Counted from the stretch's first letter, positions 763 through 64,000 are shown. The stretch is DNA of 64,000 bases from an uncultured bacterium (GCA_964577465.1 CAZNZF010000004.1:834-64833), one strand, 5' to 3'. Numbers and translations: made by a program. Notes: generated from the sequence alone by a model not told the origin.

Positions 763-1317
763 TCAAAACAGGGACTTTATCCGACCCCAGGACGCCTCTT
801 CCACCCCGCCCTCGTCCTGGATGGTGATGTAATAAGGACCTTGGTTGTCTAATTCTTCAATGGGATCTCCGTCGTAAGTGTGACCTAAGACAAAATAAAA
901 AGAGAATGAACCGAGCCTTTCGTCGTTTAAAACGTCAAATTCAGCGTGGGCATTGGAATACATCCCATCTTCTACATAACTATCGGTTAAGAACCCCTTC
1001 CAACGGTAACCATCCGGTGCGGGATGTGTGGCCTCGAGCCAGTCGGTGCATTCCTGATTAGGTATGAGCTGGCCTTCACCCTTGCCCCACGACTCGTCCC
1101 ACCAGTAATTGGCATCTTCGGCTAACCACGCGTCGGGAAATAAAATACCAAAGACACCGTATAACATCTCTTCTGCGTAAACTTCAATGGTGACTGAGAC
1201 GTGAAAATTGCTGTCGGGCGGCGCATCTTCGGGCATAGATACGTCCAAAATTTCTGCGTAGCACGTGAGTAGCACGAGACTCCCGATAACAAGTACGAGC
1301 ACCTCCCGTTTTTTCAT
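763..1317 (-). CDS. Secreted hypothetical protein (signal peptide MKKREVLVLVIGSLVLL..). Low-GC paralog of the next gene. C-terminal tail ..SWGRIKSLF
   Basis: ORF 763..1347 trimmed to the MKKREV start. Shares the motif THPAPDGYRWKGF / NDPAPEGFRWSGF with the 1562..2119 product. Visibly AT-richer (~45-50% GC) than the surrounding DNA. Confidence 0.55.
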   Translation of the reverse strand: MKKREVLVLVIGSLVLLTCYAEILDVSMPEDAPPDSNFHVSVTIEVYAEEMLYGVFGILFPDAWLAEDANYWWDESWGKGEGQLIPNQECTDWLEATHPAPDGYRWKGFLTDSYVEDGMYSNAHAEFDVLNDERLGSFSFYFVLGHTYDGDPIEELDNQGPYYITIQDEGGVEEASWGRIKSLF

Positions 1318-1532
1318 GGCTGCACCCCTCCCGTTCGACCTATGCACATCCTAAATTAACTGTATCAAAGCGTTTTTTCACCGTCAACCTTATTAATAAC
1401 TTCATCTCCTCGAACGAACACGACGGCGCTGGCAGGCGCGGTCGAGGAACGTTTCCGCCGCCGGCCACGTCCACCGCGCGAAGTAATACTCGAATACGCT
1501 GGAACGGCGGGGAGGTAGCTCCCCGCTTTATT

Positions 1533-1551
1533 ATTCGTGGGCGAGGGGCTT
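1533..1551. repeat. Palindromic element family A copy (AGGGGCTTAAGCCCCT), downstream of a minus-strand gene, next to a second hairpin GGGGAGGTAGCTCCCC (~1500-1517)
   Basis: Perfect palindrome related to CAAGGGGTTTAAACCCCTTG copies elsewhere in the window. Terminator-like position. Confidence 0.6.
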
Positions 1552-1561
1552 AAGCCCCTTG

Positions 1562-2119
1562 TCATCCGCTCAACGCCTTCAGTTTTCCCCAGGAGAGGCG
1601 GACGGTCCCGGCGTCGCCCGTCAGTTTGACCCAGACCTCGCGCCGGTCCAGCTCCTTCCACACCGAGCCCGACGGTCCCTCGCAGGCACCGACGACGAAG
1701 ACCAGCCGTACGTCGCCTCCCCGACCGTTCGGCGTGATGAAGAGTTCGGCGTGGTACGCGCCGCGACCGACGAGGGCCCGGTCGGTGACGAAGCCCGACC
1801 AGCGAAAACCCTCCGGCGCGGGGTCGTTGAACTCCAGCCAGGCGGACGAGCTCCGGCCGGGCTCGAGCCGCCCCGCGGCGTACCCGCCGTACCCTTCGGC
1901 TTCGACCGACCAATCGTCCGGTGTCAGGACGCCGAGAAAGCCGCAGGCCGTTTGGTCGGAGTCGGCCATCACGTGGAGCGTAACGGGGAAGCGCTCGCCG
2001 GGCGCAATCCGCGGCGGCGCCTCCACGGAGGTGAAGTCCAAGCAGCCCGTCGCCAGAATCCCGGCCAGCAGCGCGCAAACCGAGCGTAGCGAGCTACGCC
2101 CCTGGCGAAATGCCTTCAT
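1562..2119 (-). CDS. Secreted lipoprotein (..LLAGILATGC lipobox-like), paralog of 763..1317. C-terminal ..SWGKLKALSG
   Basis: ORF 1562..2416 trimmed to ATG at 2119 with a GGAGG RBS upstream. Shared internal motif with the neighbouring gene. The first ~11 codons are encoded by a copy of repeat family B. Confidence 0.55.
   Translation of the reverse strand: MKAFRQGRSSLRSVCALLAGILATGCLDFTSVEAPPRIAPGERFPVTLHVMADSDQTACGFLGVLTPDDWSVEAEGYGGYAAGRLEPGRSSSAWLEFNDPAPEGFRWSGFVTDRALVGRGAYHAELFITPNGRGGDVRLVFVVGACEGPSGSVWKELDRREVWVKLTGDAGTVRLSWGKLKALSG
2078..2112 (-). repeat. Repeat family B copy (ATTTCGCCAGGGGCGTAGCTCGCTACGCTCGGTTT on the minus strand) embedded in the 5' end of the lipoprotein CDS
   Basis: Matches copies at 9648, 27781, 28998, 29086, 29824, 51448 and 63940. 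Read in frame as ..KAFRQGRSSLRSV.. (the N-region of the signal peptide). Confidence 0.7.
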
Positions 2120-2390
2120 GGAAACCTCCCCCGGATTGCGGCTCGAAGACGGCCGTACACCACCGAAACGCGTTTCCGGCGGAAATGGTTCCCCCCGAAT
2201 GCCGCCCTTGACAGGCCCCCGGAGGCCCCGTAAACTTGGCGCCGACATGCGAAGGAACACGACGACAGCCGAAGGCTCCCGGAGAAAGGGGGGCGGCGCG
2301 ACGCCGCGCACGGTCGTCGAGGTGCGCTGAACCCCGACGGTCCGGCGATGGGCGCCGGTCACCCAGCCATTTTTTCCGGGAGATGACACC

Positions 2391-8850: not shown

Positions 8851-9594
8851 TTAAGTTAGGAAGAGCCAGTAGTTCAGGGTGACCATGCCGATGCCTAAGA
8901 GGGCCCCGGCCACTATCTCTCTCCAGGTGTGCACGCCGCGGCGGATGCGGGCGTCGGAGATGATGAGCGCCAGGAGGAACACGAGCACCGACACCAGCGG
9001 GTTCTCGGTCACCAGGGTGACGATGGCGAAGACGGCGAAGCTGACCGCGGAGTGGCCCGAGGGCATCCCCCCGTGGAGCGGCGTCCCGCGCCCGAGGAGC
9101 ACCTTGCCCAGGATGACCAGCACTATCACCAGGGTGAAGCTGATGAGGGTGACGTACTCGGGGCTGCCCTTCACGGCGCGGATGGCGGAGAAGATGTGGG
9201 GCTTCAGGTCCTTGAACAGAACCAGATAGCCGACGATGACCGCCGTGATGGCCGCGATGAAGACCGCCCCCGCCGAGATGTCCTTCACCAGTTTGGCCAG
9301 GGGGTGGTAGGTGGTGGTCATCAGGTCCAGCGCCTTCTCCAGCGCCGTGTTGATGAGCTCCGTCACCAGGACGAAGGCCACCGCCAGGATGACCAGGACG
9401 AGGTCGCTGCGGTCGATGTTTAAAAACAGCGACCCGGCGATGACCAGGACGCCGACGAGGAAGTGGATGCGGATGTTGCGCTCGGTCTTGAGGGTGTAGA
9501 TTATCCCCTCGAGGGCGTTGTTGAGGGACTGGGACATCCGGGGCTTCGTCCCGATGGTGCTCCGGCGCCGTTTCTGTTTTTCCTCGGGCATCAA
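8851..9594 (-). CDS. dgkA: Diacylglycerol/undecaprenol kinase (DgkA) fused to a PAP2 phosphatase domain
   Basis: N-terminal ..LNNALEGIIYTLKTERNIRIHF.. matches prokaryotic DgkA. C-terminal PSGH ... SDARIRRGVHTWREI matches PAP2 motifs. Start may be M1 or M20. Confidence 0.65.
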   Translation of the reverse strand: MMPEEKQKRRRSTIGTKPRMSQSLNNALEGIIYTLKTERNIRIHFLVGVLVIAGSLFLNIDRSDLVLVILAVAFVLVTELINTALEKALDLMTTTYHPLAKLVKDISAGAVFIAAITAVIVGYLVLFKDLKPHIFSAIRAVKGSPEYVTLISFTLVIVLVILGKVLLGRGTPLHGGMPSGHSAVSFAVFAIVTLVTENPLVSVLVFLLALIISDARIRRGVHTWREIVAGALLGIGMVTLNYWLFLT

Positions 9595-9684
9595 TCGCTA
9601 CGCTTCGTTTACGGTTGCGCCGTCGCAGGTATGCCGGGGCATTACCCGGTTTGCCGGGGGCATAGCTCGCTTCGCTTCGTTTCC
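9594..9684 (+). repeat. Repeat family B copy (full copy ~9648-9684: GGTTTGCCGGGGGCATAGCTCGCTTCGCTTCGTTTCC) plus partial fragments and one family-C-like unit (ACGGTTGCGCCGTCGCAGGTATGCC)
   Basis: Intergenic, between the ybeY stop and the dgkA start. Sequence identity to other copies. Confidence 0.65.
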
Positions 9685-15967: not shown

Positions 15968-15984
15968 GATAACCTAGTGTAAGG

Positions 15985-16004
15985 CAAGGGGTTTAACCCC
16001 CTTG
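15985..16004. repeat. Palindrome family A copy (CAAGGGGTTTAACCCCCTTG)
   Basis: Between the propeller gene stop (16012) and the cytochrome b start (15967). Confidence 0.65.
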
Positions 16005-16011
16005 TCTCATC

Positions 16012-16878
16012 TTAGAAAGAGTCGAAGTACGTTTCCCAGCCGCCGTCCTCGCGCATCACGCAGAATTTTCCCGTCCCGTCCAGCGCCGCGATGTAGTAGC
16101 GGTCCTCGCCCTCGTGGACCAGGGACCCCACCTCGAAGGGCGGTTCGCCGGGGAGGGGCTCCCCCAGGGTGACGTAATCGCCATCCTCGTCTGAATAAAC
16201 CTGCCCCGCGGCGTCGGTGACCATGACGAAGACGTTCAGGGTTTCCGGCTCGTAGAACCCGGTCACGGAATACGGGGCGGCCCCGGTGTCGTGCATGACC
16301 GCGTGGGTTTCCCAGTTATCATCGAAGCGCGTGTAGAGCGCGCCTTCGGCATCCACGGCCAGGAAGAGGGTGACGCCGGTCGGGGCGTAGTGCAGGACGT
16401 CCAGGTCGTAGGGCGGCGTTCCGACGATGGGGTCCGCGGCGGTCTCCCAGGTGTCGCCGTACCGCCAGAGCCGGCCCCCCGAATCCAGGGCGAAAAGCTC
16501 CACCGCGCCGTCGGCCTCCGCGTACCCCCCGAGGCGGTAGGGAGCCTCCCCGGGGAGGGCGTCCCCCTCGGTCCGCCACTCGTCGCCGCTGACCTCGTAG
16601 AGCCGGCCCGCGGAGTCCAGGACGAAGATGTTGACCATTCCGGGCGTGTCCGGCCGGTTCAGCACCAGGAGGTCGTAGGGGCCCCCGCCCGGGCAGGGGG
16701 TGTTCACCGCGCTCCAGCCTCCGGTTTTCCCCTGGTGGAGCTGTCCGGCTTCGTCCAGGGCGAAGATGACGTCGGTGTCGGAGTCGGGTACGTACACCGC
16801 GCTGAGCCGCGCGGCGAAAGCCGGGGCTGCGGCGATTACTACGAGCAGGATAATAGCTTTATGAATACGCAACCGCAC
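16012..16878 (-). CDS. Secreted beta-propeller-like repeat protein A (paralog of B)
   Basis: ORF 16012..17040 trimmed to a GTG start (MRLRIHKAIILLVVIAAAPAFA signal peptide) 9 nt after the stop of gene B, with GGAGGA upstream. ~6 repeats of ~45 aa (..PY.L....LD..G.LY....W..). Confidence 0.55.
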   Translation of the reverse strand: MRLRIHKAIILLVVIAAAPAFAARLSAVYVPDSDTDVIFALDEAGQLHQGKTGGWSAVNTPCPGGGPYDLLVLNRPDTPGMVNIFVLDSAGRLYEVSGDEWRTEGDALPGEAPYRLGGYAEADGAVELFALDSGGRLWRYGDTWETAADPIVGTPPYDLDVLHYAPTGVTLFLAVDAEGALYTRFDDNWETHAVMHDTGAAPYSVTGFYEPETLNVFVMVTDAAGQVYSDEDGDYVTLGEPLPGEPPFEVGSLVHEGEDRYYIAALDGTGKFCVMREDGGWETYFDSF

Positions 16879-27334: not shown

Positions 27335-27757
27335 TCATCGAACGCCCGTGCCCGCCTCGCGGTTCACGGCCGGCTCGTCGGCGGACCCCGGCGCTCGTCC
27401 GAGCAGGCGCTCCACCTGCTCGACCACCGCGTACGGCTTGAAGGGCTTGGTCAGATGCAGCCCGGCGCCTAACCCATCGCTGATGCGCCGGTAGATTTCG
27501 TCGGGCTTCGCGGTGAGCAGGACCACCGGAATCCGCGACACCCGTTCCTCCTCGCCCAGACGGTTGAGCACCTCGTAGCCGTCCATACCGGGCATCATGA
27601 GGTCGAGGATGATGGCGTCGGGTCTTTCCCGGTCGGCGAGGGGGACGCACAGCGTCGCGTCGGACACGCCCACGACCTGGTAGCCCCGTTTCTCGAAGGC
27701 CAGGGAGAGTGTCTCGACGATGTGCCGCTCGTCGTCCACTATCATTATCTTCGGCAT
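27335..27757 (-). CDS. Stand-alone response-regulator receiver (CheY-like), tandem paralog
   Basis: N-terminus identical to the neighbour over MIVDDERHIVETL. ..AIILDLMMPGMDG.. and ..TKPF... Confidence 0.8.
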   Translation of the reverse strand: MPKIMIVDDERHIVETLSLAFEKRGYQVVGVSDATLCVPLADRERPDAIILDLMMPGMDGYEVLNRLGEEERVSRIPVVLLTAKPDEIYRRISDGLGAGLHLTKPFKPYAVVEQVERLLGRAPGSADEPAVNREAGTGVR

Positions 27758-27780
27758 GGATCCCGCCCCGCCCCTTTCTT

Positions 27781-27831
27781 TTTACCGGGGCATTACTCGC
27801 TTCGTTTGGTTTTCAAGGGGTCTCAAGCCCC
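27781..27831 (+). repeat. Repeat family B copy (TTTACCGGGGCATTACTCGCTTCGTTTGG, missing one CTTCG unit) followed by a degenerate family A half-palindrome (CAAGGGGTCTCAAGCCCC)
   Basis: Intergenic, upstream of the REC gene at 27757. Confidence 0.6.
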
Positions 27832-28997: not shown

Positions 28998-29030
28998 ATT
29001 TGCCAGGGGCATAGCTCGCTACGCTCGGTT
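28998..29030 (+). repeat. Repeat family B copy (ATTTGCCAGGGGCATAGCTCGCTACGCTCGGTT)
   Basis: Intergenic, between nadD and the REC-GGDEF gene. Confidence 0.7.
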
Positions 29031-29085: not shown

Positions 29086-29120
29086 GTTTTGCCAAGGCAC
29101 TACTCGCTTCGCTTCGTTTT
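29086..29120 (+). repeat. Repeat family B copy (GTTTTGCCAAGGCACTACTCGCTTCGCTTCGTTTT)
   Basis: Directly abuts the nadD stop at 29122. Preceded by a GGGGG...CCCCCCCCC hairpin (~29059-29084). Confidence 0.7.
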
Positions 29121-29121
29121 G

Positions 29122-29715
29122 TCAGCCATCGCGGTACAGACCATTGTCAACGATGTAGCGGGCCACCGGGTCGGGGACGAGCCACCGCAGGCTGAGCCCC
29201 GCCGCGGCTCTTTGGCGCACCAGCGTCGAGGACACGCCGAAGGGGGGCATGGGGATTGCCGACGCCCGGGTCCCGGGGGGGATCTTTTCGGGCGTAATTA
29301 CACTCCCGGGTCTCGGTGCGTAGGCGAAGCGGGCGAGCCGGACCAGCTCGTCCACCCGGTGCCAGGCGCCCAGGTCGTTCAGGTTGTCGGCGCCCACGAG
29401 GATGACCGGCTCCCCGCCGAGGAGCTCCCGGAAGCGCAGGACCGTGTCTATGGTGTAGGATACGCCGCCCCGCCGGAGCTCGATGTCGTCCGGGACGAAG
29501 GCCGGTTCACCCTCGAGCGCCAGCCGGAGCATGGCGAGACGGTGGGGTTCGGCGGCTTTCGGGGGGTGGTCGCGGTGGGGTCCCCGGGCGGCGGGGATGA
29601 AGTACACCCGGTCCAGGTCTAGTTTCTCGCGGGCGAAGGTCGCCAGGAGCAGGTGGCCCAGGTGCACCGGGTCGTAGCTGCCGCCGAAGAGGGCGTACTT
29701 CCCTGGTGTGTCCAT
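29122..29715 (-). CDS. nadD: Nicotinate-nucleotide adenylyltransferase
   Basis: GGSYDPVHLGHL (H/T-x-G-H nucleotidyltransferase motif). 197 aa. Confidence 0.85.
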   Translation of the reverse strand: MDTPGKYALFGGSYDPVHLGHLLLATFAREKLDLDRVYFIPAARGPHRDHPPKAAEPHRLAMLRLALEGEPAFVPDDIELRRGGVSYTIDTVLRFRELLGGEPVILVGADNLNDLGAWHRVDELVRLARFAYAPRPGSVITPEKIPPGTRASAIPMPPFGVSSTLVRQRAAAGLSLRWLVPDPVARYIVDNGLYRDG

Positions 29716-29823: not shown

Positions 29824-29872
29824 CAAGGGGTTTTGCCAAGGGCATAGCTCGCTACGCTCGGTTAACCCCTTG
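29824..29872 (+). repeat. Composite: family A palindrome arms (CAAGGGGTT / TTAACCCCTTG) flanking a family B core (TTGCCAAGGGCATAGCTCGCTACGCTCGG)
   Basis: Same composite structure occurs in inverted orientation at 51448..51497. Confidence 0.7.
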
Positions 29873-45833: not shown

Positions 45834-45867
45834 GCAAGGGGTAAGGCAAGGGGTTTAAACCCCTTGT
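45834..45867. repeat. Palindrome family A copy with a duplicated left arm (GGGCAAGGGGTAAGGCAAGGGGTTTAAACCCCTTG)
   Basis: Intergenic, after the OMP gene. Confidence 0.65.
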
Positions 45868-45939
45868 TCCGCGCCTTGTCTCCATTGATTCTTGACCAAA
45901 GGGGTCGTCCTTTATATCATGGGGGCCGTGAGGACGGCG

Positions 45940-51447: not shown

Positions 51448-51497
51448 CAAAGGGGTTAACCGGGCGTAGCGAGCTATGCCCTTGGCAAAACCCCCTG
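51448..51497 (-). repeat. Composite family A arms + family B core, inverted orientation relative to the 29824 copy
   Basis: CAAAGGGGTTAACCGGGCGTAGCGAGCTATGCCCTTGGCAAAACCCCCTG. Confidence 0.7.
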
Positions 51498-56790: not shown

Positions 56791-56836
56791 GTCTACATGT
56801 TTTTTAACACCCCGCCTGGTGCCCGGTGGAGTAGAA

Positions 56837-56950
56837 ACCCCTCACCCGAGCCCGTAGGCGAGCCTCCCCCCAGAGGGCGATGGGATAAAAAGAACCCCCC
56901 TCCCCGGCCCGTAGGCGAGCCTCCCCCCAAGGGGGGGAGGGAGAACAAGG
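56837..56950 (+). repeat. Tandem ~56-bp direct repeat with G/C hairpins, immediately upstream of rph
   Basis: Two units sharing GCCCGTAGGCGAGCCTCCCCCCA. The second unit contains the perfect hairpin CCTCCCCCCaaGGGGGGGAGG. It ends at the rph RBS AAGGAG. Confidence 0.6.
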
Positions 56951-60632: not shown

Positions 60633-60637
60633 TGAGG

Positions 60638-60659
60638 GCAAGGGGTTTAAACCCCTTGT
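60638..60659. repeat. Palindrome family A copy (GGCAAGGGGTTTAAACCCCTTG)
   Basis: Starts 6 nt after the recJ stop. Confidence 0.65.
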
Positions 60660-60689
60660 CTCCTCTAGGATCGGCTAGGACGGTCTTTC

Positions 60690-62913: not shown

Positions 62914-64000
62914 GTGACCGATTACCGGCCCACCATCGCCTTCGAGGTCCACCTGCAGCTCGACACCGCGTCGAAGGCCTACTGCGGCTGCGCCGTCGTC
63001 TTCGGCGCCGCGCCCAACACGGTCGTCTGCCCGGTGTGCACGGGGCAGCCCGGGGCGCTCCCCGTCCCCAACCGCGGCGTCTTCGAGAGGGCCGTCCGCG
63101 TCGCCCTGGCCCTGGGCTGCGAAATAGCGGAAAAAACCCACTTCGACCGGAAGAACTACTTCTACCCCGACCTGCCCAAGGGCTACCAAATCAGCCAGCA
63201 CCCGGTGCCCGTGGGCCGCGTTGGTGAGTTTCGCTTCCCCGCGGAGCGCTACGGCGAGGCGGCCGACGCGGTCGTCAAAATCAGCCGGGTGCACGTGGAG
63301 GAGGACACCGCCAAGGCGGTCCACGACGCAAAGGGCGACACCCTCATCGACTTCAACCGCGCCGGGGTGCCGCTCATGGAAATCGTCACCGAGCCCTGCA
63401 TCCCAAATCCAGACGTAGCCTACGCCTACCTCACCGCGTTGAAGGAGACCCTGGAGTACCTGGACGTCTCCTCGTGCAGCATGGAGGAGGGCTCGCTGCG
63501 GGTGGACACCAACATCTCCGTGGCCCCGGCGGATTCAATAAAGCTGGGGACCAAGGTGGAGGTGAAGAACCTGAACTCGTTCAAGGCGGTCAAGGCGGCG
63601 CTGGAGTACGAGTTCGAGCGCCAGACGGGGATTCTGGCCTCGGGGGGGAAGGTGGTTCAGGAGACGCGGCACTGGGACGACCGCGAGGGCGCGACCCTGC
63701 CCGGCCGGGTGAAGGAGGAGGCGATGGACTACCGCTACTTCCCCGAGCCGGACATCCCGCCGTTGGCGATTCCCCGGGAGTGGGTGGAGGAGATTCGGCA
63801 AAAACTGCCGGAGCTGCCGCAACAGGCCCGCGAGCGTCTGCACGCCGCCGGTCTTTCGGGCTACGACGCCTGGGTGCTGGTGGCGGAGCGGGACCGGCTG
63901 CGCTACTACGAGGCGGTCGTCGCGGCCGGCGCCCCCGCGAAACGAAGCGAAGCGAGTAATGCCCTGGCAAAACCGGCCGCCAACTGGGTCAACGGCGACC
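62914..64000 (+). CDS. gatB: Asp-tRNA(Asn)/Glu-tRNA(Gln) amidotransferase subunit B (3' end outside window)
   Basis: GTG start, then ..TIAFEVHLQLDTASKAYCGC...GALPVPN...NYFYPDLPKGYQISQ... Open to the window end, so not listed in the ORF track. Confidence 0.85.
   Translation, partial: MTDYRPTIAFEVHLQLDTASKAYCGCAVVFGAAPNTVVCPVCTGQPGALPVPNRGVFERAVRVALALGCEIAEKTHFDRKNYFYPDLPKGYQISQHPVPVGRVGEFRFPAERYGEAADAVVKISRVHVEEDTAKAVHDAKGDTLIDFNRAGVPLMEIVTEPCIPNPDVAYAYLTALKETLEYLDVSSCSMEEGSLRVDTNISVAPADSIKLGTKVEVKNLNSFKAVKAALEYEFERQTGILASGGKVVQETRHWDDREGATLPGRVKEEAMDYRYFPEPDIPPLAIPREWVEEIRQKLPELPQQARERLHAAGLSGYDAWVLVAERDRLRYYEAVVAAGAPAKRSEASNALAKPAANWVNGD
63940..63972 (-). repeat. Repeat family B copy inserted in frame within gatB
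   Basis: AAACGAAGCGAAGCGAGTAATGCCCTGGCAAAA is 33 nt and is read as KRSEASNALAK, between ..GAPA and PAANWVNG... Confidence 0.7.

What the first reader, a model, noticed from the sequence alone, without database searches (positions are those of the whole stretch)
2078..2119. Repeat family B copy supplies the N-terminal region of a lipoprotein signal peptide
The only ATG/RBS-supported start of the 1562..2119 lipoprotein places codons 3-14 (..AFRQGRSSLRSV..) inside a family B copy. The element contributes the positively charged n-region preceding the hydrophobic core and lipobox. A mobile element may therefore have remodelled a 5' coding end.
Basis: partly seen in the sequence, partly recalled or inferred. 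Interest (0 to 1): 0.6.

Follow-up and report, generated by a model that had tools for sequence, protein, structure and literature searches.

The report
30-base repeat inserted into signal peptide
A 30-base unit of a genome-wide repeat from the uncultured phylum Coatesbacteria was inserted in frame just after the start of a lipoprotein gene, adding ten mostly positively charged amino acids to its export signal, and the same repeat lies in frame in several housekeeping genes.

Summary
Window 2078-2107 (- strand) is one 30-nt unit of a dispersed and tandem repeat, consensus YGCCRRRGGCRTAGCTCGCTWCGCTCGGTT. It has 9 copies in the window. A genome-collection scan matched only Candidatus Coatesbacteria-type MAGs, plus one contig labelled Chloroflexi.

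Ten orthologous loci read SD-ATG/GTG AAR GCN TTC TGC and give MKAF-CA.LA...LATGC. The window and two independent assemblies carry exactly 30 extra bases between codons 4 and 5, giving MKAF-RQGRSSLRSV-CALLAGILATGC. The ribosome-binding site and start codon are conserved upstream in both forms. No ATG, GTG or TTG lies between the repeat and the lipobox cysteine, so the unit is read as protein. It raises K/R in the n-region from 1 to 4 and leaves the hydrophobic core and lipobox intact.

This is one case of a wider pattern. Units sit in frame in recG, ymdB, tsaB, an Hsp20 tail and gatB (window 63940-63973). The closest analogues are Rickettsia palindromic elements and the very small dispersed repeats of Nostoc. 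The insertion mechanism is unknown. Junctions carry TT on both sides even where the target dinucleotide was TC or AT. Verdict: a new variant of a known kind, of moderate interest.

The parts
2078..2107 (-). One 30-nt family-B repeat unit (CGCCAGGGGCGTAGCTCGCTACGCTCGGTT), read as codons 5-14 = RQGRSSLRSV of the lipoprotein precursor
   Evidence: Absent from 10 orthologous loci and present in 3. nhmmer E = 8e-9 to the family profile. It is the C..G..A subtype, 6 of 87 full units.
2108..2110 (-). Junction codon 4 (TTT, Phe). It is TTT in all three filled alleles; empty alleles read TTC (CTC in L011/L012).
   Evidence: DNA alignment of orthologous loci
2117..2119 (-). ATG start codon of the lipoprotein gene
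   Evidence: ATG or GTG is conserved at this position in every ortholog, followed by AAR GCN TTY
2125..2132 (-). Shine-Dalgarno-like GGGGGAGG, 5 nt upstream of the ATG
   Evidence: Sequence. GGAGG is conserved in all orthologous loci.
2084..2099 (-). Perfect 16-nt palindrome GCGTAGCTCGCTACGC inside the unit. It forms an 8-bp hairpin in the mRNA about 20-40 nt downstream of the AUG.
   Evidence: -13.6 kcal/mol for the unit, z = -2.1. The whole 5' region is no more stable than shuffles (z = 0.05).
2042..2056 (-). Lipobox L-A-T-G-C (codons 22-26), with Cys26 as the predicted lipidated residue
   Evidence: G25 and C26 are conserved in at least 90% of aligned sequences. Passes a PS51257-type rule with and without the insert.
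1562..2119 (-). Lipoprotein gene: 185 aa, unknown function, beta-sandwich mature domain
   Evidence: 13 homologues, all from Coatesbacteria-type contigs. No Pfam or NCBIfam match. AlphaFold2 pLDDT 80 with residues 1-23 below 50. Only generic cohesin/Ig-like fold matches.
1540..1569 (.). Family-A palindrome (GGCGAGGGGCTTAAGCCCCTTGTC) directly after the stop codon. This is the repeat family whose loops usually host family-B units.
63940..63973 (-). Second in-frame coding copy in the window: a family-B unit inside gatB, read as KRSEASNALAKP
   Evidence: Alignment with GatB homologues shows an exact 10-residue gap.
28998..29030 (+). Intergenic family-B copy, 34 nt upstream of a response-regulator start
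29830..29864 (+). Family-B unit nested in the loop of a family-A palindrome (29824-29871)
51457..51491 (-). Family-B unit nested in a family-A palindrome (51450-51497). The whole composite is absent from the orthologous site in L020.
9576..9682 (+). Two degenerate family-B copies (9576-9610 and 9649-9682) between ybeY and the DAGK/PAP2 gene
   Evidence: Degenerate copies also lie at the orthologous place in L001.
27779..27812 (+). Divergent family-B copy upstream of gene 27335-27757
29086..29119 (+). Divergent family-B copy just downstream of gene 29122-29715. It is shared in degenerate form with L094.

Best explanation
**What it is.** Window 2078-2107 (-) is one 30-nt unit of a repeat found almost only in Coatesbacteria-type genomes. 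It was inserted, in frame, between codons 4 and 5 of a lipoprotein gene.

**How it acts on the protein.** Translation still begins at the ancestral SD and ATG. The unit is therefore read as RQGRSSLRSV, and the signal-peptide n-region grows from MKAF to MKAFRQGRSSLRSV. K/R before the hydrophobic core rises from 1 to 4. The hydrophobic core and the lipobox LATGC are untouched, so the precursor should still be exported and lipidated.

**Why coding regions tolerate the unit.**
- Its length is 10 codons, and its partial forms (21 nt and 9 nt) are also multiples of three.
- It is free of stop codons in 4 to 5 of the 6 reading frames.
- The same unit sits in frame in recG, ymdB, tsaB, gatB and other genes.

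**Shown.**
- The insertion is present in three alleles and absent in ten.
- The start signals are conserved in both forms.
- The segment belongs to the repeat family.
- Units occur in frame in other genes.

**Inferred.**
- That the insert is translated.
- That it is neutral or nearly neutral for export.
- That all filled alleles descend from one insertion, later shuffled among lineages by homologous recombination.
- The copying mechanism. Junctions read TT-[28 nt]-TT even where the target dinucleotide was TC or AT. That fits microhomology-guided template switching, or an unknown recombinase acting at T-rich single-stranded loops, better than a cut-and-paste transposon with a target-site duplication.
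For: **The family is real and taxonomically restricted.**
- 9 copies in the window.
- 95 exact core matches in 78 loci. All come from three MAGs (two named Candidatus Coatesbacteria, one labelled only 'uncultured bacterium'), plus one contig labelled Chloroflexi from the same RBG_13 sample.
- Units form tandem arrays with an exact 30-nt period and nest in the loops of two palindrome families.

**Ortholog proteins and DNA.**
- The protein alignment shows +10 aa in the window protein and in P0004.
- At DNA level the empty loci are L001-L003, L005-L007 and L009-L012. The filled ones are the window, L004 and L008. The difference is exactly 30 nt.
- The locus lies between valS and ftsX in all of them.

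**Start codon.**
- GGAGG followed by ATG/GTG AAR GCN TTY is conserved in every locus.
- The lipoprotein rule is passed by both the filled form (Cys26) and the empty form (Cys16). It is failed by the downstream start annotated in L008.

**Single origin of the filled alleles.**
- All three carry the rare C..G..A unit subtype, 6 of 87 full units including two of these lipoprotein copies.
- The exact 30-mer occurs only in the lipoprotein genes.
- TTT is linked to the insert without exception; empty alleles read TTC, or CTC in L011/L012.

**Recombination at the locus.** The best-matching partner changes along the locus. L013 is 97% identical to the window around the start, but 95-98% identical to L004 in the 3' half.

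**In-frame copies in other genes.**
- RecG shows an exact 10-residue gap against PDB 1gm5.
- YmdB has about 11 extra residues against 4b2o.
- GatB shows a 10-residue gap against homologues.
- TsaB, a STAND protein, a glycosyltransferase, a response-regulator N-terminus and an Hsp20 tail also contain units.

**Junction pattern.**
- GCGT-TC-TGC becomes GCGT-TT-[28 nt]-TT-TGC.
- GGAA-AT-CGGG becomes GGAA-TT-[two units]-TT-CGGG.
- GGGGT-TT-AAACCCC becomes GGGGT-TT-[28 nt]-TT-AAACCCC.

**Internal structure of the unit.** Positions 1 and 11 covary: T-A in 89 units, C-G in 44, other combinations in 6.
Against: - There is no expression or proteomic evidence, because these organisms are known only from metagenome assemblies.
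- No signal-peptide predictor was available, so only a rule-based check was made.
- The filled alleles are not monophyletic in the CDS tree: L004 (filled) is sister to L013 (empty) with bootstrap 99. The insert also lies on two different flanking haplotypes. A single origin therefore requires short recombination tracts. Recurrent site-specific insertion is not excluded.
- The empty-to-filled junction needs one extra change (TTC versus TTT...GTT), so it is not a simple 30-nt insertion.
- No mobilising enzyme was identified (a weak negative).
- The insert creates an 8-bp hairpin close to the AUG that could lower expression.
Confidence: 0.85

Rival explanations
1. The true start lies downstream of the repeat, so the unit is in the 5' UTR and does not contribute to the protein.
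For: - The depositor's annotation of the RBG_13_66_14 ortholog (P0008) starts at a GTG after the repeat.
- The unit forms a hairpin near the AUG.
- In L013/L014 a TAG at codon 5 shows that the ancestral start can be lost and a downstream GTG called instead.
Against: - In the window there is no ATG, GTG or TTG between the repeat and Cys26. The next in-frame candidates, TTG at codon 27 and GTG at codon 32, would delete the signal peptide that all orthologs keep.
- The SD and ATG/GTG AAR GCN TTY are conserved in every locus, including L008.
- The short L008 form has no K/R and fails the lipoprotein rule.
- The insert preserves the reading frame in three alleles that differ by 14-17%.
Confidence: 0.06
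2. The insert arrived independently, two or three times, at exactly this site, because the site resembles a unit-to-unit junction (..CGGTT|YGCC..) that the copying mechanism targets.
For: - Filled and empty alleles occur on two distinct flanking haplotypes. The nearest relative of each filled allele around the start is an empty one: window with L013 and L004 with L001, each 97% identical.
- The insert shows 0-1 differences in 30 nt, against 14-17% divergence in the rest of the CDS (P about 0.01-0.05). This suggests the insert is younger than its flanks.
- 134 of 139 units are preceded by TT.
Against: - All three inserts are the same rare subtype, found in 4 of 85 full units elsewhere, with the identical junction including the extra T. 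The exact 30-mer is found nowhere else.
- Mosaic recombination at the locus is directly visible and can move one insertion between backgrounds.
Confidence: 0.2
3. The insertion damaged the gene, so the filled alleles are decaying pseudogenes or poorly exported variants and not working lipoproteins.
For: - The n-region of 14 residues is unusually long.
- A stable hairpin lies 20-40 nt after the AUG.
- Another allele of the same gene (L013/L014) has a premature stop at codon 5, so the 5' end is under relaxed constraint in at least one lineage.
Against: - The filled ORFs are intact over 185 codons in three lineages that differ by 14-17%.
- The lipobox and hydrophobic core are conserved.
- The added residues are basic or polar with no acidic residue, as expected of an n-region.
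Confidence: 0.1
4. The 30 nt are ancestral to the gene and were deleted in most lineages. The resemblance to the intergenic repeats would then be secondary.
For: The empty alleles are paraphyletic in the CDS tree.
Against: - All outgroups (L009, L015, P0011-P0014) and the adjacent paralog lack the segment.
- The segment belongs to a family of more than 100 copies, mostly in hairpin loops.
- No deletion of the filled sequence yields the empty TTC TGC sequence without an additional substitution.
Confidence: 0.03

Closest known systems
Rickettsia palindromic elements (RPE; Ogata et al. 2000, summarised in PMC10969869)
   Same: - A repeated element is found in frame inside many unrelated protein-coding genes, including housekeeping genes.
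- It adds a peptide segment without breaking the ORF.
- It was recognised by presence/absence between orthologs.
   Different: - RPEs are about 100-150 bp long palindromes of alphaproteobacterial endosymbionts. This unit is 30 nt and has only a 4-bp stem.
- This unit forms exact tandem arrays and usually sits in the loops of other palindromic repeats.
- No sequence relationship was tested or is expected.
Small dispersed repeats (SDR, 21-27 nt) of Nostocaceae (Elhai et al. 2008, PMID 18599681; cited; the paper itself was not held, so details are from memory)
   Same: - The repeats are under 30 nt, too small to encode anything.
- Mobility was inferred from ortholog comparison.
- They insert into other repeats or palindromes (nesting).
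   Different: - The phylum and the sequence are different.
- To my knowledge SDRs are not noted for systematic in-frame insertion into coding genes, nor for a 3n unit length.
REP/BIME elements and REPINs mobilised by RAYT transposases (PMC3116915)
   Same: - Short GC-rich repeats with a small stem-loop.
- They are clustered and mosaic with other motifs, and are mostly intergenic.
   Different: - REPs are extragenic, longer imperfect palindromes. REPINs are inverted doublets. Here the units are direct tandem repeats.
- No RAYT-like gene was detected in about 0.6 Mb of related DNA (weak test).
Bacterial lipoprotein (Sec/SPase II) signal peptides
   Same: The precursor has a basic n-region, an uncharged hydrophobic core and the lipobox L-A-T-G-C. 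Both the filled and the empty forms satisfy a PROSITE PS51257-type rule.
   Different: In the filled form, 10 of the 14 n-region residues are encoded by a repeat unit. That is not a described origin for signal-peptide sequence, as far as the papers searched show.

Membership tests
Family-B 30-nt repeat (defined here) | Matches the unit consensus YGCCRRRGGCRTAGCTCGCTWCGCTCGGTT over its full length | tested here: met
   29/32 identity to two other window copies, with 0 expected by chance. nhmmer E = 8e-9.
Family-B 30-nt repeat (defined here) | Preceded by TT, ends in GGTT, and positions 1 and 11 are complementary | tested here: met
   The copy reads TT-CGCC AGG GGCG...CGGTT, with C1 and G11.
Bacterial lipoprotein signal peptide (PROSITE PS51257-type rule) | K/R within the first 7 residues; 6 uncharged residues; then [LIVMFWSTAG]2-[LIVMFYSTAGCQ]-[AGS]-C, with the Cys at position 15-35 | tested here: met
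   The filled form passes with Cys26 and 2 K/R in the first 7 residues. The empty form passes with Cys16. The rule was written from memory of the PROSITE pattern.
Bacterial lipoprotein signal peptide | Actual cleavage by signal peptidase II and lipidation of Cys+1 | not testable with these tools
   The organism is uncultured, and neither SignalP nor LipoP was available.
MITE (miniature inverted-repeat transposable element) | Terminal inverted repeats, and a target-site duplication made from target sequence | tested here: not met
   - There are no terminal inverted repeats, only an internal 4-bp stem.
- The flanking TT..TT is present even where the empty site reads TC or AT.
Rickettsia palindromic elements | A repeat inserted in frame in many unrelated coding genes | tested here: met
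   Found in the lipoprotein, recG, ymdB, gatB, tsaB and others.
Rickettsia palindromic elements | A palindromic element of about 100-150 bp belonging to one of the described RPE families | tested here: not met
   The unit is 30 nt. Sequence similarity to RPEs was not tested.
REP / REPIN (RAYT-associated) | An imperfect palindrome of about 20-40 nt, often in inverted pairs, associated with a RAYT (Y1 HUH) gene | tested here: inconclusive
   - Typical units fold weakly and arrays are direct, not inverted.
- tblastn with IS200- and RAYT-like queries written from memory found nothing in the held loci.
CRISPR array | Repeats separated by unique spacers of similar length | tested here: not met
   Tandem units abut with an exact 30-nt period and no spacers.
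Any Rfam RNA family | A match at the family's gathering threshold | tested here: not met
   0 matches in the whole window.

The most novel reading that the evidence does not exclude
Family B would be a previously undescribed class of ultra-small, codon-compatible selfish element.
- Its unit is 30 nt, or 10 codons, with 21-nt and 9-nt sub-forms.
- It would copy itself by its own mechanism into T-rich single-stranded sites, such as hairpin loops and TT dinucleotides, leaving TT on both sides.
- It would routinely colonise the coding sequence of essential genes in Candidatus Coatesbacteria, adding decapeptides to proteins and, as here, building part of a signal peptide.
- That would make it the smallest known element creating protein-sequence novelty in frame.
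Probability: 0.3. Interest if true: 0.8.

Novelty: new variant of a known kind. Interest (0 to 1): 0.6.

Why it matters
- **A direct case of a repeat building coding sequence.** Ortholog comparison shows a tiny genomic repeat becoming part of a targeting signal, not only a loop in a folded domain. The ancestral and derived alleles both still exist in nature, so the two signal peptides can be compared experimentally.
- **A possible new system for an open question.** How sub-100-nt repeats without any coding capacity move is unresolved. A 30-nt unit that spreads into hairpin loops and, in frame, into recG, gatB, ymdB and tsaB in an uncultured phylum extends the 'selfish DNA in coding genes' phenomenon known from Rickettsia to a much smaller element.
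- **A practical annotation problem.** The repeat misleads gene callers. The deposited ortholog in RBG_13_66_14 was given a truncated start, so annotation of these genomes would benefit from masking or modelling the unit.

Tried and rejected
- **Known RNA families.** An Rfam scan of the whole window gave no match.
- **Known protein families.** Pfam and NCBIfam gave nothing for the lipoprotein or its paralog. An AlphaFold2 model plus Foldseek search gave only generic beta-sandwich matches with TM 0.4-0.5, so no function could be assigned.
- **RNA-level role tied to transcription.** All 8 intergenic copies in the window are antisense to their neighbouring genes. In the wider sample the split was 25 antisense to 24 sense, so the idea was rejected.
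- **Stable hairpin as the family's defining feature.** Typical units fold no better than shuffles. Only the 4-bp stem at positions 1-11 is supported, by covariation.
- **Adaptive Cys-to-Arg and His-to-Arg changes after insertion.** Rejected. The C and G variants are simply the second common subtype of the family.
- **Counting insertion events from the CDS tree.** Unreliable, because the locus is a recombination mosaic.
- **Looking for a mobilising HUH/Y1 transposase.** tblastn in the held loci found nothing. The queries were written from memory, so this is a weak negative.
- **Metagenome scan for empty sites of the four copies around 27.8-29.9 kb.** A scan seeded with the neighbouring response regulator gave only one close ortholog (L094) and no clean junction.
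- **gatB orthologs.** The database search returned only short, distant GatB fragments. These were enough to show the 10-residue gap but not the empty DNA site.
- **Elhai et al. 2008.** The paper could not be read because it is not held.

Full report
**1. The observation**

On the minus strand the region reads GGGGGAGG-tttcc-ATG AAG GCA TTT CGC CAG GGG CGT AGC TCG CTA CGC TCG GTT TGC GCG CTG CTG GCC GGG ATT CTG GCG ACG GGC TGC. This translates to MKAFRQGRSSLRSVCALLAGILATGC.

The 32-mer at 2079-2110 recurs at 28998-29029 and 29831-29862 with 3 mismatches each, and no match is expected in shuffled sequence. Repeat finding and a profile search give 9 copies in the window: 2077-2110, 9576-9610, 9649-9682, 27779-27812, 28998-29030, 29086-29119, 29830-29864, 51457-51491 and 63940-63973. 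The repeat family and the copy inside the 5' end of the ORF are therefore real.

**2. The repeat family**

An exact-pattern scan of one genome per prokaryotic species found 95 matches in 78 loci.
- All come from three MAGs: RBG_13_66_14 and CSMAG_1439, both named Candidatus Coatesbacteria, and binchicken_co150_225, labelled only 'uncultured bacterium'.
- The one exception is a contig labelled Chloroflexi, from the same RBG_13 sample.

Listing the flanks shows how the family is built.
- The unit is 30 nt, YGCCRRRGGCRTAGCTCGCTWCGCTCGGTT.
- It often forms head-to-tail arrays with an exact 30-nt period, together with truncated 21-nt and 9-nt units.
- Arrays are most often embedded in the loop of one of two palindrome families: GACAAGGGGTTT[..]AAACCCCTTGTC ('family A', which also occurs on its own in the window) and GTAGGGCGGGGATT[..]CCTATCCCCGCC.

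Further properties:
- Positions 1 and 11 covary (T-A in 89 units, C-G in 44, other in 6), which defines a 4-bp stem with a purine triloop. 134 of 139 units are preceded by TT.
- Typical units do not fold better than shuffled sequence.
- Nothing in the window matches Rfam.
- There is no orientation bias relative to transcription: 25 antisense against 24 sense.

**3. The gene and its orthologs**

The 185-aa product has 13 homologues, the named one from Candidatus Coatesbacteria. It matches no Pfam or NCBIfam family. The AlphaFold2 model has mean pLDDT 80. Residues 1-23 are below 50, and a beta-sandwich begins at residue 27 that resembles only generic cohesin/Ig-like folds.

The protein alignment gives the key result. 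Most orthologs are 175 aa and begin MKAF-CA.LA..LATGC. The window protein and P0004 carry ten extra residues (RQGRSSLRSV and RQRRSSLRSV) between F4 and C5.

I fetched the encoding contigs, where the gene lies between valS and ftsX, and aligned the DNA.
- Ten loci (L001-L003, L005-L007, L009-L012) read SD-ATG/GTG AAR GCN TTC TGC. L011/L012 have CTC in place of TTC.
- L013 and L014 also lack the insert, but carry TAG at codon 5.
- The window, L004 (a Logan assembly of SRR11721626) and L008 (RBG_13_66_14) read ...GCN TTT [CGCCAGRGGCGTAGCTCGCTACGCTCGGTT] TGC, exactly 30 nt more.

Three independent assemblies carry the insert, so it is not an assembly artefact. The outgroups and the neighbouring paralog (763-1347) lack it, and the segment belongs to a family with more than 100 copies. 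The polarity is therefore insertion, not deletion.

**4. Is the insert translated?**

- GGAGG plus ATG/GTG AAR GCN TTY is conserved in all loci, filled or empty.
- In the window no ATG, GTG or TTG lies between the insert and the lipobox cysteine. The next in-frame candidates are TTG at codon 27 and GTG at codon 32, and either would remove the signal peptide that every ortholog keeps.
- In L008 the depositor's gene call starts at a GTG after the insert (MLAPVLAAGC). That form has no basic residue and fails a PROSITE PS51257-type lipoprotein rule. The long filled form (Cys26) and the empty form (Cys16) both pass.
- The frame is intact in three filled alleles whose coding sequences differ by 14-17%.

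I conclude, with about 85% confidence, that the unit is translated. It lengthens the n-region from 4 to 14 residues and raises K/R before the hydrophobic core from 1 to 4. It adds no acidic residue. The hydrophobic core and the lipobox LATGC are unchanged.

The insert also creates an 8-bp hairpin about 20-40 nt after the AUG. The 5' region as a whole is not unusually stable (z = 0.05). Any effect on expression is unknown.

**5. History of the insertion**

A neighbour-joining tree of the CDS without the insert does not group the filled alleles. L004 (filled) pairs with L013 (empty) at bootstrap 99. However, a sliding comparison shows that the locus is a recombination mosaic.
- L013 is 97% identical to the window around the start, but 95-98% identical to L004 in the 3' half.
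- L004 is 97% identical to the empty L001 around the start.

Three facts favour a single origin.
- All filled alleles carry the same rare unit subtype (C..G..A: 6 of 87 full units, including two of these lipoprotein copies).
- The exact 30-mer occurs nowhere else in the held sequence.
- TTT at codon 4 is linked to the insert without exception; empty alleles read TTC, or CTC in L011/L012.

The insert differs at only 0-1 of 30 positions between alleles whose remaining CDS differs by 14-17% (P about 0.01-0.05). It has therefore spread more recently than its flanks diverged, or it is constrained. The most economical reading is one insertion, later moved between lineages by homologous recombination. 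Recurrent insertion at a preferred site remains possible (about 0.2).

**6. How the unit gets in**

The clean empty/filled pairs are:
- GCGT-TC-TGCGCG becomes GCGT-TT-[28 nt]-TT-TGCGCG (the lipoprotein).
- CTCGGAA-AT-CGGG (L055) against CTCGGAA-TT-[two units]-TT-CGGG (L081).
- GTCG-AA-TAG (L081) against GTGG-AA-[reverse-complement unit]-AA-TAA (L055). This adds 10 residues in front of an Hsp20 stop codon.
- GGGGT-TT-AAACCCC becomes GGGGT-TT-[28 nt]-TT-AAACCCC in hairpin loops.

The net gain is always 30 nt. TT flanks the core on both sides even where the target dinucleotide was TC or AT, so this is not a classical target-site duplication.

That pattern, the tandem and truncated units, and the preference for loops all fit copying by microhomology-guided template switching from an existing array, or an unknown recombinase acting on single-stranded T-rich sites. 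This step is inference. No HUH or RAYT-like gene was found in about 0.6 Mb of held Coatesbacteria DNA, but the queries were written from memory, so the negative is weak. Whole A+B composites also differ between orthologous sites (window 51450-51497 against L020, and L025 against the window). The host palindromes are therefore themselves mobile.

**7. The wider pattern**

I scanned all fetched copies for open frames with coding signal on both sides and found units in frame in real genes.
- RecG (L092): alignment to PDB 1gm5 shows a gap of exactly ten residues at PEPSEASYAS.
- YmdB (L071): about 11 extra residues against 4b2o.
- TsaB (L070): ICRGHSSLRSVS, in the same frame as the lipoprotein.
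- Also a STAND-type protein, a glycosyltransferase, a response-regulator N-terminus (L078) and an Hsp20 C-terminal tail.
- gatB in this window (63940-63973, KRSEASNALAKP): homologues show an exact ten-residue gap.

The common T..A subtype of the unit is stop-free in 5 of 6 frames, and the C..G..A subtype in 4 of 6. The full unit and its partial forms are all multiples of three. These two properties explain why coding regions tolerate it.

**8. Comparison with known systems**

The behaviour is that of Rickettsia palindromic elements, which are repeats inserted in frame in many unrelated genes (review PMC10969869). The unit here is four to five times smaller and is not a long palindrome.

In size and nesting it resembles the 21-27-nt small dispersed repeats of Nostocaceae (Elhai et al. 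2008; cited; the paper was not held).

It fails the defining tests for a MITE (no terminal inverted repeats, no true target-site duplication), for a CRISPR array (no spacers) and for any Rfam family. REP/RAYT membership is inconclusive.

The eight papers in the library that mention Coatesbacteria are community or taxonomy surveys. None has a title or abstract about repeats.

**9. Verdict**

It is a new variant of a known kind of phenomenon. It is interesting mainly for three reasons: the element is so small, it contributes to a signal peptide, and both allelic states are available for experiment. Interest 0.6.

Noticed in passing
window 63940-63973 (inside gatB, which runs off the window end at 64000): A second family-B unit lies in frame in a coding gene of this window. 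GatB reads ...VVAAGAPA[KRSEASNALAKP]AANWVNGD, and GatB homologues show an exact 10-residue gap at that place.
   Followed up: yes
window 1540-1569, 15983-16012, 45845-45874, 60637-60666; composites 29824-29871 and 51450-51497: A second repeat family ('A') is the palindrome GGCAAGGGGTTTAAACCCCTTGTC.
- Family-B units are usually nested in its TTTAAA loop.
- A copy is inserted just upstream of the lipoprotein SD in L004 and L008, but not in the window or L001.
- The whole A+B composite at 51450-51497 is absent from the orthologous site in L020.
   Followed up: partly
window 763-1347 (-): A paralog of the lipoprotein (32% identity, with its own signal sequence MKKREVLVLVIGSLVLLTC) lies between the lipoprotein and ftsX.
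- It is present here and in L009/L010, but absent from L001, L005, L006 and L008.
- The first 2 kb of the window has lower GC (0.61) than the rest.
   Followed up: partly
L013:1448-1465 and L014 (orthologous lipoprotein loci): These alleles read ATG AAA GCA TTC TAG GTG CTG. There is a stop at codon 5 exactly at the insertion site, and the gene is called from the next GTG, which loses the n-region.
   Followed up: no
L008:9953-10510 (RBG_13_66_14, MFAF01000015.1; protein P0008): The deposited annotation starts this ortholog at a GTG downstream of the repeat (169 aa). The conserved SD and GTG AAA GCG TTT start upstream are intact. This is probably a gene-caller error caused by the repeat.
   Followed up: yes
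L078:1983-2015 (RBG_13_66_14): A response-regulator gene appears to begin inside two reverse-complement family-B units: MKTEATRVTPRRTERSELRPRRT-VLIIDDEENLL. No other start codon lies before the receiver domain.
   Followed up: partly
L055:4212-4243 versus L081:460-482: An Hsp20 gene ends ...KVEVE* in L081, but ...KVEVEPSEASYASGK* in L055. In L055 a reverse-complement family-B unit sits between the last codon and the stop.
   Followed up: partly
L039 (MGMR01000092.1, labelled Chloroflexi bacterium RBG_13_51_18): This is the only scanned contig labelled with another phylum that carries the repeat. It holds two identical A+B composites in inverted orientation, 480 nt apart. It comes from the same sample as the Coatesbacteria MAG, so it may be mis-binned.
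   Followed up: no
window 56836-56949: A tandem pair of 57-nt units (AACCCCTCACCCGAGCCCGTAGGCGAGCCTCCCCCC...). The related motif CCCTCACCCTAGCCCGTAGGCGAGC also appears next to family-B copies in L046 and L060. It looks like a third repeat family.
   Followed up: no
L004 protein P0004, residues 5-9: In this filled allele the loop position of the unit is AGG, not GGG, giving QRRSSLR. That is a twin-arginine pair in the repeat-encoded n-region. It was not tested whether this resembles a Tat motif.
   Followed up: no
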